This document shows positions 14,568 to 44,015 of a DNA stretch of 64,000 nt, piece after piece (the stretch's first letter is position 1; each line of letters starts with the position of its first letter). The notes beneath the pieces were generated by a model, which had not been told where the DNA came from, searched no databases, and saw nothing but the letters and a program-made list of their open reading frames with translations. This stretch comes from Minisyncoccota bacterium. Its GTDB lineage: Bacteria > Patescibacteriota > Minisyncoccia > Phycocordibacterales > JAGLOS01. The stretch spans positions 1,067 through 65,066 of the forward strand of contig JAGLOS010000001.1 in NCBI GenBank assembly GCA_023137615.1, given 5' to 3'. The position numbers were made by a program, and so were the translations under genes.

Positions 14568-15041
14568 TATTTTAAGTTTACCTTTCTTTGAGGCAAAACA
14601 AAAGCCAGCAGAAGCTGGCTTTTAAAAACTATCCCACGCTTTCGCGCAGCATAAATTCTATATGTTCCGGAACCTTTGGTGGTCTCCCTCGAGAATTGGT
14701 CTTTAAATACAAAACAATTCTGCTTATTAATATCTTGTCTTGTTGGGATAACCTTTCACGCTTTTCTAGGTCAGAACAAATGAAATTTATGTATCCTGGA
14801 AAAAAATTGATAATTTTTCTTAAAATATTTTCGCTCATAATAATATTATACAGAGCAACCTTTTTTGTGCGCTGGAGACGCACAGACAAAAGGTCTATAC
14901 GCTCCTTAAAATTGATAAAGATAAAGGCGGGAAGTCAAAAAAAGTTAATTATAAAAGGACTCCTTACCTGTCTTTAGTCATACATAATATGATCCAAAGA
15001 GTCAAGGGCTCGTAATGGTTCAATATCTTTAGAACTTTTGA

Positions 15042-40944: not shown

Positions 40945-41178
40945 AGTAAAATATGGGCGGACAATCAAATGTCTCGCCCTATTTTTTTAATATTACTGAA
41001 TAGTAAAAATAGTATTGTGTAAGAGTTGCGAGCAAACTGCTATTTTTACATCATAGAGAAAAAGACAATCCTACAGACAAGACACCTCATAATAACTTCC
41101 ATTTTGCTTGTCTCAAAAAACTATGTTATTATTTTGTATGATAAAGTATGATGAATTTCTAATCCCCTTTTTATAACC

Positions 41179-41979
41179 ATGAACCGCGCCAGAATTACAA
41201 TCACCTTAAAAAAAGAATTGCTTAAACACGTTGATGGACTCATCGACGGAACCAAAATAAAAAATCGCTCCCACGCTATTGAGTCTTTGCTGTCCAAGAA
41301 TTTTGCCGAACGAAAAATAAAAAAGGCGGTTATTTTAGCTGGCGGGAAAGGAGCAAAATTTGAAGGAGAAACAAAAAACGTTTCTCGAGTTTTAACCCCT
41401 TATAAAAACAAACTTTTTATTGAACATATCTTTGACCGACTGGAGAAAGAAGGGATTGAAGAAGTCATTGTTTCCGCCGGCAGTCTGGGAAAAGAGATCA
41501 AGGAAAAGATCGGCAATGGGACTAAATATGGTTTAGCGGTTTCTTATTTAGCAAAAGACGCAGGCACGGCAAGCGTTTTAAAATACCTGGCCAGTATAAT
41601 TGACGAAACATTTTTAATGATCAACGGTAACGTTTTAGCTGACGTCGATTTGAATGAAATGTTTAACTTTCATAAAAAGACTGGCGGGGTTTGCACTATC
41701 GGTATGATCTCCATCAAAGAACCCTCCGCCTTTGGAACAATTAAACTAAAAGGAAATCAAATTATTGACTTTATTGAAAAACCAAAAGCGGGAAAAGAGG
41801 AATCTTACTTAATTAACGCCGGAATTTACATTATGGAACCGGAAATTTGCCAGATCACCACTGCAAATTGTCTGAGTTTGGAAAAAGACCTCTTTCCTTC
41901 TCTGGCAAAAAAAGATAACCTTTTCGGATATTATTTGCAGGGAAAATGGTTTCACTTAGACAGTCTTAATAAATTTTAA
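41179..41979 (+). CDS. ribbon-helix-helix (CopG/Arc-like) domain fused to sugar-phosphate nucleotidyltransferase
   Basis: 266 aa. Residues about 5-45 (RITITLKKELLKHVDGLIDGTKIKNRSHAIESLL) match the RHH beta-alpha-alpha pattern. The rest is an NTP_transferase fold (AVILAGGKGAKF) with a divergent G-loop lacking the usual Arg. Confidence 0.65.
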   Translation: MNRARITITLKKELLKHVDGLIDGTKIKNRSHAIESLLSKNFAERKIKKAVILAGGKGAKFEGETKNVSRVLTPYKNKLFIEHIFDRLEKEGIEEVIVSAGSLGKEIKEKIGNGTKYGLAVSYLAKDAGTASVLKYLASIIDETFLMINGNVLADVDLNEMFNFHKKTGGVCTIGMISIKEPSAFGTIKLKGNQIIDFIEKPKAGKEESYLINAGIYIMEPEICQITTANCLSLEKDLFPSLAKKDNLFGYYLQGKWFHLDSLNKF

Positions 41980-41991
41980 CTTTACGCTTGG

Positions 41992-43077
41992 ATGAAATTC
42001 CTAATTATGGCAGGTGGTAAAGGAACACGGCTTTGGCCGGTTTCCAGAACCAAAAAACCGAAACAATTCCAAAAGTTGATCAGCGACAAAACTATGTTGC
42101 AAGAAACCGTCAATCGTCTATTGCCTGATTTTTCTTTGAAAGATATCTATATCGCCACCAATGGATCTTATGCCAAAGAGGTTAAAAAAGAGCTGCCCAA
42201 ATTGCCGGCAGGCAATATCATCAAGGAGCCGTCATTTAGAGAAAGAGCTTCTTGCGTCGCTTTGGCGGCAGCCATTTTTAGCAAAGATGATCCTAATGAG
42301 ACAATGGTTGTTTTTCCTTCCGATCATTTTATTAAAGACAAGAAAAAGCTTCAGCATATTTTAATTGAAGGAGAAAAATTTCTCAATGAAAATCCTGACC
42401 ACTTAATTACTGTCGGGGTTAAACCAACAGGCCCTGAGACTGGTTACGGCTACATTCAACATCAAATAGACCCTTTTAAAAGCACAAATCCAAAAAACGA
42501 TCTGGATTTTTTTCAAGTTAAAAAGTTTATTGAAAAACCGGATCTAAAAACAGCTAAAAAATATTGTGGGCAAGAAAATTTTTTGTGGAATACCAGTATC
42601 TATTTATGGAAAACTTCGGCGATCATTGATAGATTCAAGAAATTTATTCCCGATACTTATGAGCGCCTCTGCAGAATTAAAAAAACGGTCGGTACTCCCC
42701 TCTTTCAAAAAATGCTCAGCGAAGAATATCCTTTAATGGATATGGTCTCCATGGAATATGGAATATTGGAAAATGACACCAAAACAGTCGCTATCTCAAC
42801 AGATCTGGAGTGGTCCGATATTGGCAGTTGGTCAGTATTGAAAGACTCTTTAAACAATTCAGGACATGAGCATCTTGTCAAAGGCGAACATTTGGATATC
42901 GGTTCTAAAAATTTACTTGTTTACGGTTCAAAAAAATTAATCGCCACTGTCGGACTAAAAGATCTGATCATTATTGATACCGATGATGTCATCTTGGTTT
43001 GCGGCAAAGATGACAGTCAACTTGTTAAAGTTATTGTAGATAAACTGGAAAAAAATAAAAATATAAAATTATTGTAA
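41992..43077 (+). CDS. manC: mannose-1-phosphate guanylyltransferase
   Basis: 361 aa. LIMAGGKGTRLWPVSR G-loop. ManC-type architecture without a PMI domain. Confidence 0.8.
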   Translation: MKFLIMAGGKGTRLWPVSRTKKPKQFQKLISDKTMLQETVNRLLPDFSLKDIYIATNGSYAKEVKKELPKLPAGNIIKEPSFRERASCVALAAAIFSKDDPNETMVVFPSDHFIKDKKKLQHILIEGEKFLNENPDHLITVGVKPTGPETGYGYIQHQIDPFKSTNPKNDLDFFQVKKFIEKPDLKTAKKYCGQENFLWNTSIYLWKTSAIIDRFKKFIPDTYERLCRIKKTVGTPLFQKMLSEEYPLMDMVSMEYGILENDTKTVAISTDLEWSDIGSWSVLKDSLNNSGHEHLVKGEHLDIGSKNLLVYGSKKLIATVGLKDLIIIDTDDVILVCGKDDSQLVKVIVDKLEKNKNIKLL

Positions 43078-43103
43078 TTTAATAATCTATCATTGAGACA
43101 ATT

Positions 43104-44015
43104 ATGAAATATTTAGTTACGGGCGGAGCCGGATTTATCGGTTCAAATATGGTTCACGATTTGGTTGGCGAGGGGCACGAAATTATTGTAGTTGATAATC
43201 TCTCAACCGGAAGCTTGGGAAATCTTGCGGAAGTAAAAAATAAAATAAAATTTATTGAAGCGCCGTGCATGGATGTTTTGGAGTTGGATGAACTTGATGG
43301 TCTGGATGGAATTTATCATTATGGTATCCCTTCCACAACAAAACTCTACCACGATAACCGTCTGCTAATCGGCGAAGCAATTAATGAATTCACTAAAATT
43401 TTAGAACTAACAAAAAGGGAAAATTGTAAATTGATCTATGCTTCATCTTCCTCTGTTTATAACGGCAATAAATCACCGTTTAAAGAAAATATGCCAGTGT
43501 TAGTCAAAGACTTCTATACCGAAGCTCGCTATCTGATGGAGCGGATGGCAAAACTTTATTATGATCTTTATAAAGTCAGATCTATCGGCTTTAGATTTTT
43601 CAGTGTTTATGGACCACGTGAAGAAGCTAAAAAAACATTTGCCAATTTGGTTTCACAATTTTTGTGGGATCTAAAAGCAGAAAAACAGCCGCTTATTTAC
43701 GGCGACGGTTCGCAAACCCGCGATTTCACTTATGTAGATGACATCAATCGAGGTTTTAGATTGGGAATGAGATCTGAATATGATCTTGATATTTTTAATC
43801 TCGGCACGGGAAAATGTTACAGCTTAAATGAATTGGTCAACACACTCAACAAAATTCTCGGCACAGACATTGAACCAACTTATCAAAAAAATCTTCTCCA
43901 AAATTACGTCCAAGGAACATTGGCTGACACTTCCAAAGCAAAAGAAAAACTTTGTTTCAAAACAGAGGTTTCTCTTAAAAAAGGAATCGAAAAAGTCCTT
44001 AATTGTTCTGAATGA
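43104..44015 (+). CDS. NAD-dependent sugar-nucleotide epimerase/dehydratase (SDR)
   Basis: 303 aa. VTGGAGFIGSN Rossmann motif and YASSSSVYN...K catalytic region. Confidence 0.85.
   Translation: MKYLVTGGAGFIGSNMVHDLVGEGHEIIVVDNLSTGSLGNLAEVKNKIKFIEAPCMDVLELDELDGLDGIYHYGIPSTTKLYHDNRLLIGEAINEFTKILELTKRENCKLIYASSSSVYNGNKSPFKENMPVLVKDFYTEARYLMERMAKLYYDLYKVRSIGFRFFSVYGPREEAKKTFANLVSQFLWDLKAEKQPLIYGDGSQTRDFTYVDDINRGFRLGMRSEYDLDIFNLGTGKCYSLNELVNTLNKILGTDIEPTYQKNLLQNYVQGTLADTSKAKEKLCFKTEVSLKKGIEKVLNCSE

What the first reader, a model, noticed from the sequence alone, without database searches (positions are those of the whole stretch)
41179..44015. Ribbon-helix-helix DNA-binding domain fused to a sugar nucleotidyltransferase, heading a GDP-sugar module
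The first about 45 residues of the 266-aa protein match the RHH (CopG/Arc/MetJ) pattern (RITITLKKELLKHVD...SHAIESLL). The rest is a nucleotidyltransferase whose G-loop (GGKGAKF) lacks the canonical catalytic Arg of GxGTRL. It is followed by a canonical ManC and an NAD-dependent epimerase. This could be a self-regulating or moonlighting enzyme-repressor, or a catalytically impaired paralogue that regulates the adjacent manC.
Basis: partly seen in the sequence, partly recalled or inferred. Interest (0 to 1): 0.5.

Follow-up and report, generated by a model that had tools for sequence, protein, structure and literature searches.

The report
DNA-binding regulator built from sugar-nucleotide enzyme
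This gene encodes a DNA-binding switch fused to a probably inactive copy of a sugar-activating enzyme. It most likely shuts off its own three-gene GDP-sugar operon, and it belongs to a large undescribed family found in hundreds of ultra-small bacteria and archaea that share one DNA target site.

Summary

The fusion is a family. At least 559 species-level genomes of Patescibacteria and DPANN archaea carry it, and none is annotated as RHH.

An unbiased k-mer search upstream of 84 members found the likely operator, GTATGAY boxes spaced exactly 10 bp apart:
- 53/84 upstream regions carry GTATGAT, against 93/3415 control segments (p 9e-56).
- Tandem boxes occur in 49/84 upstream regions, against 12 hits in the other 778 kb.

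In the window the only exact tandem (41136-41152) lies just after a conserved extended -10 element, which implies autorepression.

The window's clade is monophyletic and always has ManC immediately downstream. It has lost the Thr-Arg of the G-loop and one metal-binding Asp, and this protein has also lost a second Asp. The rest of the domain stays conserved. The best reading is a pseudoenzyme sensor-repressor.

In the archaeal loci the same boxes sit before fructose-bisphosphatase, GAPDH and phosphomannomutase operons.

Nothing here is tested experimentally. I rate it a new variant of a known kind, interest 0.65.

The parts
40948..40985 (+). Hairpin followed by a T-run. It is the likely terminator of the upstream unit and sets the left border of the promoter region.
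   Evidence: Inverted repeat I3. The sequence GGGCGGACA...TGTCTCGCCC is followed by TATTTTTTT.
41104..41109 (+). Putative -35 element TTGCTT.
   Evidence: The TTG is invariant in the alignment of 7 related promoters. It lies 17 nt from the -10 element. It was not called by the consensus scan, matching only 3 of 6 positions, so it is inferred.
41124..41132 (+). Putative extended -10 element TGtTATTAT.
   Evidence: The TG and TA columns are invariant in 7 relatives. Sequence. Inferred, not mapped.
41136..41142 (+). Operator box 1, GTATGAT.
   Evidence: Part of the only exact tandem match in the 64-kb window. GTATGAT is the top-ranked 7-mer upstream of family genes, p 9e-56. The box core (TATGA) is invariant in the footprint alignment; its last base varies T/C/A.
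41146..41152 (+). Operator box 2, GTATGAT, 10 bp from box 1.
   Evidence: The 10-bp spacing is the dominant spacing: 45 direct and 25 inverted pairs. Tandem boxes occur in 49/84 upstream regions, against 0.035 in shuffles.
41179..41313 (+). Ribbon-helix-helix DNA-binding domain, residues 1-45. Beta-strand R5-I-T7-I-T9, helix 12-21, helix 30-43.
41335..41397 (+). Degenerate G-loop region, residues 53-73: LAGGKGAKFEGETKNVSRVLT. It lacks the Thr-Arg, the Pro-x-Thr and the Pro-Lys of the canonical motif.
   Evidence: It is the least conserved segment in this clade and the most conserved in other members.
41323..41964 (+). Nucleotidyltransferase-like domain, residues 49-262. Predicted ligand sensor and catalytically impaired.
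   Evidence: Pfam hit. Closest solved structures are the GDP-mannose pyrophosphorylases VTC1 and GMPPB. N151 replaces VTC1 Asp111 and H259 replaces Asp219 (residue roles from PMC9168903).
41179..41979 (+). Whole gene for the RHH-nucleotidyltransferase fusion, 266 aa.
   Evidence: It is identical to NCBI hypothetical protein KAR24_00270 from a Candidatus Pacebacteria MAG.
41992..43077 (+). manC, a canonical mannose-1-phosphate guanylyltransferase without a PMI domain. Predicted co-transcribed target.
   Evidence: ManC is immediately downstream in 14 of the 15 members of the degenerate clade; the fifteenth, L004, has an NTP_transferase + Cupin_2 gene there.
43104..44015 (+). SDR epimerase/dehydratase-family gene, the last gene of the predicted operon. 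It carries YTEAR in place of the YxxxK catalytic motif.

Best explanation
The 266-aa protein is a one-component transcription factor. Its N-terminal RHH domain dimerises and binds GTATGAY boxes. Two dimers occupy the two boxes at 41136-41152, one helical turn apart. The boxes lie immediately downstream of the extended -10 element, over the predicted transcription start. Binding there would block RNA polymerase and repress the operon made of its own gene, manC and the SDR gene.

The C-terminal domain descends from a GDP-mannose-pyrophosphorylase-type enzyme. In this clade it has lost catalytic residues while keeping its fold and pocket. It most likely acts as the sensor, binding a sugar nucleotide or precursor such as GDP-mannose, the ManC product. 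That would tune DNA binding and give end-product feedback.

What is shown: the RHH fold, the family, the conserved tandem boxes and their position, the residue losses, and the strict ManC linkage.

What is inferred: DNA binding itself, the direction of regulation (repression), the identity of the ligand, and the loss of catalysis.
For: RHH domain:
- Family profile against PDB hits NikR at E 3e-5.
- 21/22 N-termini hit Pfam RHH_1.
- The model has pLDDT 82-95 over the domain.

Operator:
- GTATGAT is the most enriched 7-mer upstream of 84 non-redundant family genes: 53/84 against 93/3415, p 9e-56.
- Box spacing is exactly 10 bp in 70 pairs.
- Tandem boxes give 59 hits in 16.7 kb of upstream DNA, against 12 in 778 kb elsewhere and 0.035 loci in shuffles.
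- Upstream regions of other genes lack the boxes unless they share the intergenic region: PMM 0/45, ManC 0/15, SDR 0/17.
- The window has a single exact tandem in 64 kb, 27 nt before the start codon.
- In 7 relatives only the -35 TTG, the TGnTA of the -10 and the two boxes are invariant.
- The strand residues R-x-T-x-T and the half-site GTATGA equal those of E. coli NikR (alignment; operator from PMC7055735).

Pseudoenzyme:
- The equivalents of Thr12, Arg13 and Asp219 of VTC1 are missing in the clade, and Asp111 is also missing in this protein. Glu195-Lys196 and the EKP motif are retained (residue roles).
- The clade is monophyletic, and 14 of its 15 members have a canonical ManC immediately downstream; L004 has an NTP_transferase + Cupin_2 gene there instead.
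- In this clade the G-loop is the least conserved segment (55.8%), while the rest of the domain stays at 67.5%. In other members the G-loop is the most conserved segment (69.9%).
- A roughly 210-aa subfamily keeps the RHH invariants but has an eroded enzyme domain. DNA binding therefore appears to be the conserved function.
Against: There is no experimental evidence for any step.

K60 and R70 sit where Arg13 and Lys23 would be. They could partly substitute, so residual or altered catalysis is not excluded.

The promoter hexamers are weak matches, were missed by the consensus scan, and the transcription start is not mapped.

About 30% of family loci show no recognisable tandem box within 200 nt, mostly Altiarchaeota and some Patescibacteria.

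No multimer or DNA-complex model could be made. The ligand is a guess based on the neighbouring gene.

In archaeal relatives the boxes lie upstream of the TATA box, a position more typical of activators. The sign of regulation may therefore differ between lineages.
Confidence: 0.62

Rival explanations
1. It is a bifunctional, still-active enzyme-repressor. The protein makes an NDP-sugar, perhaps different from the ManC product, and also represses its own operon, as PutA, BirA and NadR do.
For: The canonical members of the family carry a full catalytic set, GGKGTR..P.T..PK, NGD, EKP and WxDxG. They are usually followed by phosphomannomutase rather than ManC, so the ancestral protein was probably such a bifunctional enzyme. 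In the window protein K60 and R70 are basic residues near the lost Arg and Lys positions. EKP and E235-K236 are retained.
Against: Position 60 varies across the clade (K, R, V, L, T, E), so it is not under selection. The equivalent of Asp219 is lost throughout the clade, and Asp111 is lost in this protein. A canonical ManC lies downstream in 14 of 15 clade members. The G-loop shows relaxed conservation.
Confidence: 0.22
2. It is an activator, not a repressor. The boxes recruit or stabilise RNA polymerase in this bacterium as well.
For: In the archaeal loci read the boxes sit about 10-13 nt upstream of a TATA-like element, a position usually linked to activation in archaea (from established knowledge of archaeal regulators). 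The -35 element in the window is a poor match, as is common for activator-dependent promoters.
Against: In the window and its 6 close relatives the boxes lie downstream of the conserved extended -10 and cover the predicted start site. That is a repressor position in bacteria.
Confidence: 0.1
3. The RHH is only a dimerisation or protein-interaction module, and the upstream repeats are an unrelated promoter feature.
For: RHH domains always dimerise. No DNA-binding assay exists for this family.
Against: The boxes are specific to this gene's upstream region in two domains of life with different promoter types. They are absent from other genes' upstream regions. The DNA-facing strand residues R-x-T-x-T are nearly invariant and match NikR, whose half-site has the same hexamer.
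Confidence: 0.04

Closest known systems
NikR (nickel-responsive RHH repressor)
   Different: The C-terminal domain here is a nucleotidyltransferase fold, not the ACT-like nickel-binding domain. The boxes are 10 bp apart in direct or inverted orientation, not two inverted half-sites separated by 16 bp. The presumed ligand is a sugar nucleotide, not a metal.
PutA (RHH fused to proline-catabolic enzymes, an autogenous repressor)
   Different: PutA is a large active flavoenzyme that switches by membrane association. Here the enzyme domain is small and unrelated, and in this clade it is probably inactive.
BirA and NadR (enzyme-repressors)
   Same: In both, an enzyme domain that acts on a nucleotide (adenylating biotin in BirA, transferring AMP to NMN in NadR) doubles as the effector-sensing domain of a repressor. 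This is from established knowledge.
   Different: They use helix-turn-helix domains and unrelated enzyme folds, and they remain catalytically active.
GMPPA, the non-catalytic paralogue of GDP-mannose pyrophosphorylase GMPPB
   Same: The enzyme family is the same: GMPPB is among the best PDB hits at E 1.5e-52, and GMPPA also matches. GMPPA is an inactive paralogue that binds GDP-mannose and gives feedback on the active enzyme (PMC11228364 abstract).
   Different: GMPPA acts allosterically on the enzyme through protein contacts. The present protein would act on transcription through an added DNA-binding domain, and it lacks the C-terminal beta-helix domain.
TrmB-family sugar regulators of archaea (TrmBL1/Tgr)
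   Same: A sugar-sensing regulator with sites before gluconeogenic genes such as fructose-bisphosphatase. This is from established knowledge and is relevant only to the archaeal members.
   Different: The DNA-binding fold, sensor domain and motif are all unrelated.

Membership tests
Ribbon-helix-helix (CopG/Arc/MetJ) superfamily | Beta-alpha-alpha fold of about 45 residues. | tested here: met
Ribbon-helix-helix (CopG/Arc/MetJ) superfamily | Sequence match to RHH profiles. | tested here: met
   The single sequence is below the Pfam cutoff (15.2 against 20.5 bits). However, 21/22 relatives match RHH_1 and the family profile hits NikR at E 3e-5.
Ribbon-helix-helix (CopG/Arc/MetJ) superfamily | Obligate dimer with a two-stranded sheet inserted in the DNA major groove. 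| not testable with these tools
   Only monomer prediction is available. In the monomer model the strand is unpaired.
Ribbon-helix-helix (CopG/Arc/MetJ) superfamily | Binds repeated operator sites near its own promoter. | tested here: inconclusive
   Conserved tandem GTATGAY boxes lie upstream of family genes. Binding itself is not shown.
NikR family | C-terminal ACT-like tetramerisation and metal-binding domain. | tested here: not met
   The C-terminal part is a PF00483 nucleotidyltransferase.
Sugar-1-phosphate nucleotidyltransferase (PF00483, GDP-mannose pyrophosphorylase type) | Rossmann-like GT-A fold of the catalytic domain. | tested here: met
   Pfam E 9e-27. Foldseek hits VTC1 and GMPPB at E 1e-19 with TM 0.68-0.74.
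Sugar-1-phosphate nucleotidyltransferase (PF00483, GDP-mannose pyrophosphorylase type) | G-loop GxGTRxxPxT...PK (VTC1 Thr12, Arg13, Lys23). | tested here: not met
   The loop reads GGKGAKFEGETKNVSRV. The Thr-Arg position is Ala-Lys and varies within the clade.
Sugar-1-phosphate nucleotidyltransferase (PF00483, GDP-mannose pyrophosphorylase type) | Two catalytically critical Asp residues (VTC1 Asp111, Asp219). | tested here: not met
   The corresponding residues are N151 and H259 (residue roles from PMC9168903).
Sugar-1-phosphate nucleotidyltransferase (PF00483, GDP-mannose pyrophosphorylase type) | Glu-Lys pair (VTC1 Glu195-Lys196) and the EKP motif. | tested here: met
   E235-K236 and E200-K201-P202 are retained.
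Sugar-1-phosphate nucleotidyltransferase (PF00483, GDP-mannose pyrophosphorylase type) | Catalytic activity. | not testable with these tools
   This requires an enzyme assay.
Enzyme-derived repressors (PutA, BirA, NadR type) - a functional class, not a homologous family | A DNA-binding domain fused to an enzyme domain whose ligand controls repression of the cognate pathway. | tested here: inconclusive
   The architecture and the operator before its own operon are shown. Ligand control is not tested.

The most novel reading that the evidence does not exclude
This could be a previously unrecognised, enzyme-derived metabolite-sensing transcription factor shared by Patescibacteria and DPANN archaea, using one operator (GTATGAY boxes at 10-bp spacing) in both domains of life.

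In the archaea it would couple the sugar-nucleotide pool to upstream carbon flow. Its boxes sit before fructose-1,6-bisphosphatase genes of four Pfam-distinct types (class I, class I fused to a DeoC aldolase, GlpX, and FBPase_3), before GAPDH, GHMP and PfkB kinase genes, and before its own operon with phosphomannomutase.

The family would also preserve a stepwise series in living lineages: an active enzyme-regulator, then a pseudoenzyme sensor (this window), then a roughly 210-aa pure regulator.
Probability: 0.35. Interest if true: 0.8.

Novelty: new variant of a known kind. Interest (0 to 1): 0.65.

Why it matters
Patescibacteria and DPANN archaea have very small genomes with few recognisable regulators, and almost none of those has a known target site.

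This family gives a concrete, testable regulator-operator pair present in at least 559 species-level genomes. It is currently annotated only as 'sugar phosphate nucleotidyltransferase' or 'hypothetical protein'. Only 1 of the 120 best database relatives carries an RHH annotation.

It links gene control to the supply of activated sugars for the cell surface, which is central to the attached, symbiotic lifestyle proposed for these organisms.

It also offers a clean natural example of an enzyme turning into a ligand sensor. The catalytic loop decays exactly where a separate ManC takes over the chemistry.

The sharing of one operator between bacteria and archaea raises the question of gene transfer between the two groups.

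Tried and rejected
1. The 7-bp inverted repeat AGACAAG/CTTGTCT (41075-41113) was considered as the operator. I rejected it because it is not conserved in the 7 related promoters.

3. A metagenome-wide scan for the exact tandem pattern returned 120 rows, which was the cap. Only 2-3 lay next to a family gene and one next to an archaeal GAPDH. The 14-base pattern alone is therefore not specific across all metagenomes, and the scan could not define a regulon.

4. The consensus promoter scan did not call the + strand promoter. The promoter rests on the conservation footprint only.

5. A toxin-antitoxin reading (RHH antitoxin plus minimal nucleotidyltransferase) was rejected. The enzyme domain is PF00483 of the sugar-nucleotide type, not a minimal nucleotidyltransferase.

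6. Five literature searches for this domain combination found nothing relevant. The library lacks most subscription journals, so absence of prior work is not proven.

7. Altiarchaeota members lack clear boxes. I saw possible variant boxes (GTAATAY) but did not establish them.
Full report
**What is there.** The window holds three closely spaced + strand genes:
- 41179-41979, 266 aa.
- 41992-43077, 361 aa.
- 43104-44015, 303 aa.

A hairpin with a T-run lies upstream at 40948-40985. A convergent threonine dehydratase gene lies downstream. Pfam and NCBIfam identify the second protein as a ManC-type mannose-1-phosphate guanylyltransferase without the isomerase domain. The third is an SDR epimerase/dehydratase-family protein.

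The first protein has an NTP_transferase domain on residues 49-247 (E 9e-27). It has only a sub-threshold RHH_1 match on residues 5-38 (E 0.021). It is identical to an NCBI 'hypothetical protein' from a Candidatus Pacebacteria MAG.

**The N-terminus is a ribbon-helix-helix domain.**
- A profile of 22 N-termini from relatives hits the RHH of E. coli NikR at E 3e-5, then P. horikoshii NikR and CopG.
- 21 of those 22 match Pfam RHH_1, best E 1.3e-7.
- AlphaFold2 with an 82-sequence alignment gives mean pLDDT 88.6. Residues 1-11 are extended, with helices at 12-21 and 30-43 and pLDDT of 82-95 there. This is the expected picture for one chain of an RHH dimer.
- Foldseek on the isolated 47-residue model was not significant.

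**It is a large, unannotated family.**
- The word-indexed search found 915 relatives at E <= 1e-5. The best 120 nearly all cover 94-100% of the query (two short ones cover 68% and 83%), and only one carries a precomputed RHH annotation.
- A scan of one genome per species found 559 genomes encoding a relative with the motif I[KR]NRSHA[IV]E. They are Patescibacteria and DPANN archaea: Altiarchaeota, Woesearchaeota, Nanoarchaeota, Parvarchaeota and Aenigmatarchaeota.
- The RHH profile alone finds 688 clusters at 50% identity in 1.84 billion representatives. In the 10 checked, the domain was attached to a nucleotidyltransferase, a fragment of one, or an eroded or unrecognised C-terminal part.
- The RHH is the most invariant part of the protein: R5, T7, T9, D19, D23, G24, N29, R30, S31, H32, A33 and E35.

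**The operator.** I took the 200 nt upstream of 84 non-redundant family genes. I compared all 7-mers with 3415 control segments from the same loci.
- The top word is GTATGAT/ATCATAC: 53/84 against 93/3415, Fisher p 9e-56. Overlapping words follow it in the ranking.
- Boxes with at most 1 mismatch are spaced at exactly 10 bp in 45 same-orientation and 25 opposite-orientation pairs. Other spacings are at background level.
- A tandem pair with at most 1 mismatch in 14 positions occurs 59 times in the 16.7 kb of upstream DNA, in 49 of 84 loci. It occurs 12 times in the remaining 778 kb, and in 0.035 loci on average after shuffling.
- Allowing 2 mismatches, 58 of 84 loci have a tandem pair.
- This is not a general promoter feature. 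Upstream regions of phosphomannomutase (0/45), ManC (0/15) and SDR genes (0/17) lack it. The 17 of 444 other genes that have it are mostly divergent neighbours sharing the intergenic region.

In the window the only exact tandem in 64 kb is GTATGATaaaGTATGAT at 41136-41152, 27 nt before the start codon.

I aligned this region with six relatives whose proteins are 50-75% identical. Only four features are conserved: a TTG at the -35 position, the TG-n-TA of an extended -10 (41124-41132), and the two boxes. Within the boxes the TATGA core is invariant. The boxes thus begin 4 nt after the -10 hexamer and cover the expected start site, which is a repressor position. The promoter is inferred from conservation. 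The consensus scan did not call it.

The DNA-facing strand (R-x-T-x-T) and the NRS.AI helix start equal those of E. coli NikR. NikR's operator half-site is GTATGA (PMC7055735). That Arg3, Thr5 and Thr7 of NikR read the bases is from my memory of the NikR-DNA structure. I could not confirm it from a held paper.

**The enzyme domain.** The closest solved structures are GDP-mannose pyrophosphorylases:
- VTC1, GMPPB and the Leishmania enzyme, at Foldseek E about 1e-19.
- With the family profile, E is 1e-50 to 1e-52.

The VTC1 paper names Glu195-Lys196, Asp111 and Asp219 as catalytically critical. It names Thr12, Arg13 and Lys23 as pyrophosphate contacts (PMC9168903).

Most family members keep all of these, reading GGKGTR(L/M)xPxTxExPK, NGD, (L/I)EK and WFDTG. 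The window protein has:
- A59-K60 for Thr-Arg.
- No Pro-x-Thr.
- S69-R70 for Pro-Lys.
- N151 for Asp111.
- H259 for Asp219.
- E200-K201-P202 and E235-K236 retained.

**Pseudoenzyme clade and ManC linkage.** Fifteen of the 84 loci share these losses plus a 2-residue deletion before GTAS. They form one clade in a neighbour-joining tree. Fourteen of the 15 have a canonical ManC immediately downstream, usually followed by an SDR gene; the fifteenth, L004, has an NTP_transferase + Cupin_2 gene in that position. Members with a canonical loop almost never have ManC next to them. Most archaeal ones are followed by phosphomannomutase.

In the window's nine-member Paceibacteria subgroup of this clade the G-loop segment is the least conserved part, at 55.8% mean pairwise identity. 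The RHH is at 69.0% and the rest of the enzyme domain at 67.5%. In the other members the G-loop is the most conserved part, at 69.9% against about 53%. Selection on catalysis has therefore relaxed, while the fold and the rest of the pocket are still maintained. That is what a ligand-sensing pseudoenzyme should look like.

A further roughly 210-aa subfamily keeps every RHH invariant. It has no G-loop, no EKP and a truncated C-terminus. The non-catalytic GMPPA, which binds GDP-mannose and restrains GMPPB, is a precedent within the same enzyme family.

**Mechanism proposed.** Two RHH dimers bind the two boxes on one face of the DNA and block initiation of the three-gene operon. The pseudoenzyme domain binds a pathway metabolite, most simply GDP-mannose made by the adjacent ManC, and modulates binding. 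The linker between helix 2 (ends at residue 43) and the first strand of the enzyme domain (starts at residue 49) is about five residues. The two domains are therefore tightly coupled. DNA binding, the sign of regulation, the ligand and the loss of activity are all inferences.

**Wider context in archaeal relatives.** Of the 12 tandem hits outside the 200-nt upstream zone, five lie a little further upstream of the same gene. Six of the other seven lie before carbohydrate genes:
- Fructose-bisphosphatase fused to a DeoC aldolase (L038), and a homologous FBPase cut off at the locus edge (L044).
- Class V FBPase followed by GAPDH (L083).
- Archaeal GAPDH (L079).
- A PfkB kinase (L069).

Divergent neighbours that share the operator with the family gene are GlpX-type FBPase (4 loci), class I FBPase (3), GHMP kinase (4) and a GAPDH-like gene (1).

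Fructose-bisphosphatases of several Pfam-distinct types recur next to the same boxes. This argues for a functional link to hexose-phosphate supply. The sample is limited to 10-kb loci, and I could not scan whole genomes. In the archaeal loci read, the boxes lie about 10-13 nt upstream of a TATA-like element (sequences), so the sign of regulation there is open.

**Novelty.** Enzyme-repressors (PutA, BirA, NadR) and RHH regulators with a ligand domain (NikR) are known kinds. This domain combination, its operator, its spread across two domains of life and its decay series were not found in five literature searches. Public annotation misses the RHH. I rate it a new variant of a known kind, with interest 0.65.

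Noticed in passing
window 43104-44015: The SDR protein has YTEAR where the family's catalytic YxxxK motif should be, so Lys is replaced by Arg. The substitution is conserved in five orthologues at 70-73% identity. The sister clades keep YxxTK. The last enzyme of the operon may therefore also have altered or lost chemistry.
   Followed up: partly
window 14977-14993: A second tandem box with one mismatch, GTCATACataATATGAT. It lies in a 450-nt gap between a phosphoglycerate mutase-like gene (judged by eye from its sequence; no family scan run) and a Maf-like gene, about 90 nt before a possible 86-aa minus-strand ORF. It could be a second target or chance; by my own rough estimate, not computed with a tool, about 0.2-0.7 such hits are expected per 64 kb.
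   Followed up: partly
L038, L044, L055, L056, L067, L074, L079, L080, L083: In archaeal relatives the same tandem boxes precede fructose-1,6-bisphosphatase genes of four Pfam-distinct types: class I, class I fused to a DeoC aldolase, GlpX, and FBPase_3. They also precede archaeal GAPDH.
   Followed up: partly
P0208, P0238, P0243, P0251, P0255: A roughly 210-aa subfamily keeps all RHH invariants but has lost the G-loop, the EKP motif and the C-terminal part of the enzyme domain. Its genomic context was not examined.
   Followed up: partly
L035, L040, L042, L046, L058-L063, L069, L073, L075, L081, L084: A second Patescibacteria clade has G(L/I/V)K in place of GTR but keeps the rest of the loop (MRPFTYEMPK). 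It has no ManC next to it and usually no phosphomannomutase (L040 has one just upstream). Whether Lys can replace the Arg is unknown.
   Followed up: no
L013, L017, L019-L021, L024, L026, L031, L068: Altiarchaeota members mostly lack GTATGAY tandem boxes within 200 nt. Words such as GTAATAC and GTAATAT are also enriched upstream of family genes and occur 10 bp apart in L025, L039 and L047. This hints at variant boxes.
   Followed up: no
L128 and L162 (metagenome contigs Ga0126342): Long arrays of repeats with a period of about 20 nt contain the same GTATGAT...GTATGAT pattern. They have no family gene nearby and are probably unrelated satellite-like repeats.
   Followed up: no
L033, L041, L051 and one more locus: A GHMP-family kinase is transcribed divergently from the family gene and shares the operator region. 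It might be a sugar-1-kinase feeding the nucleotidyltransferase.
   Followed up: no
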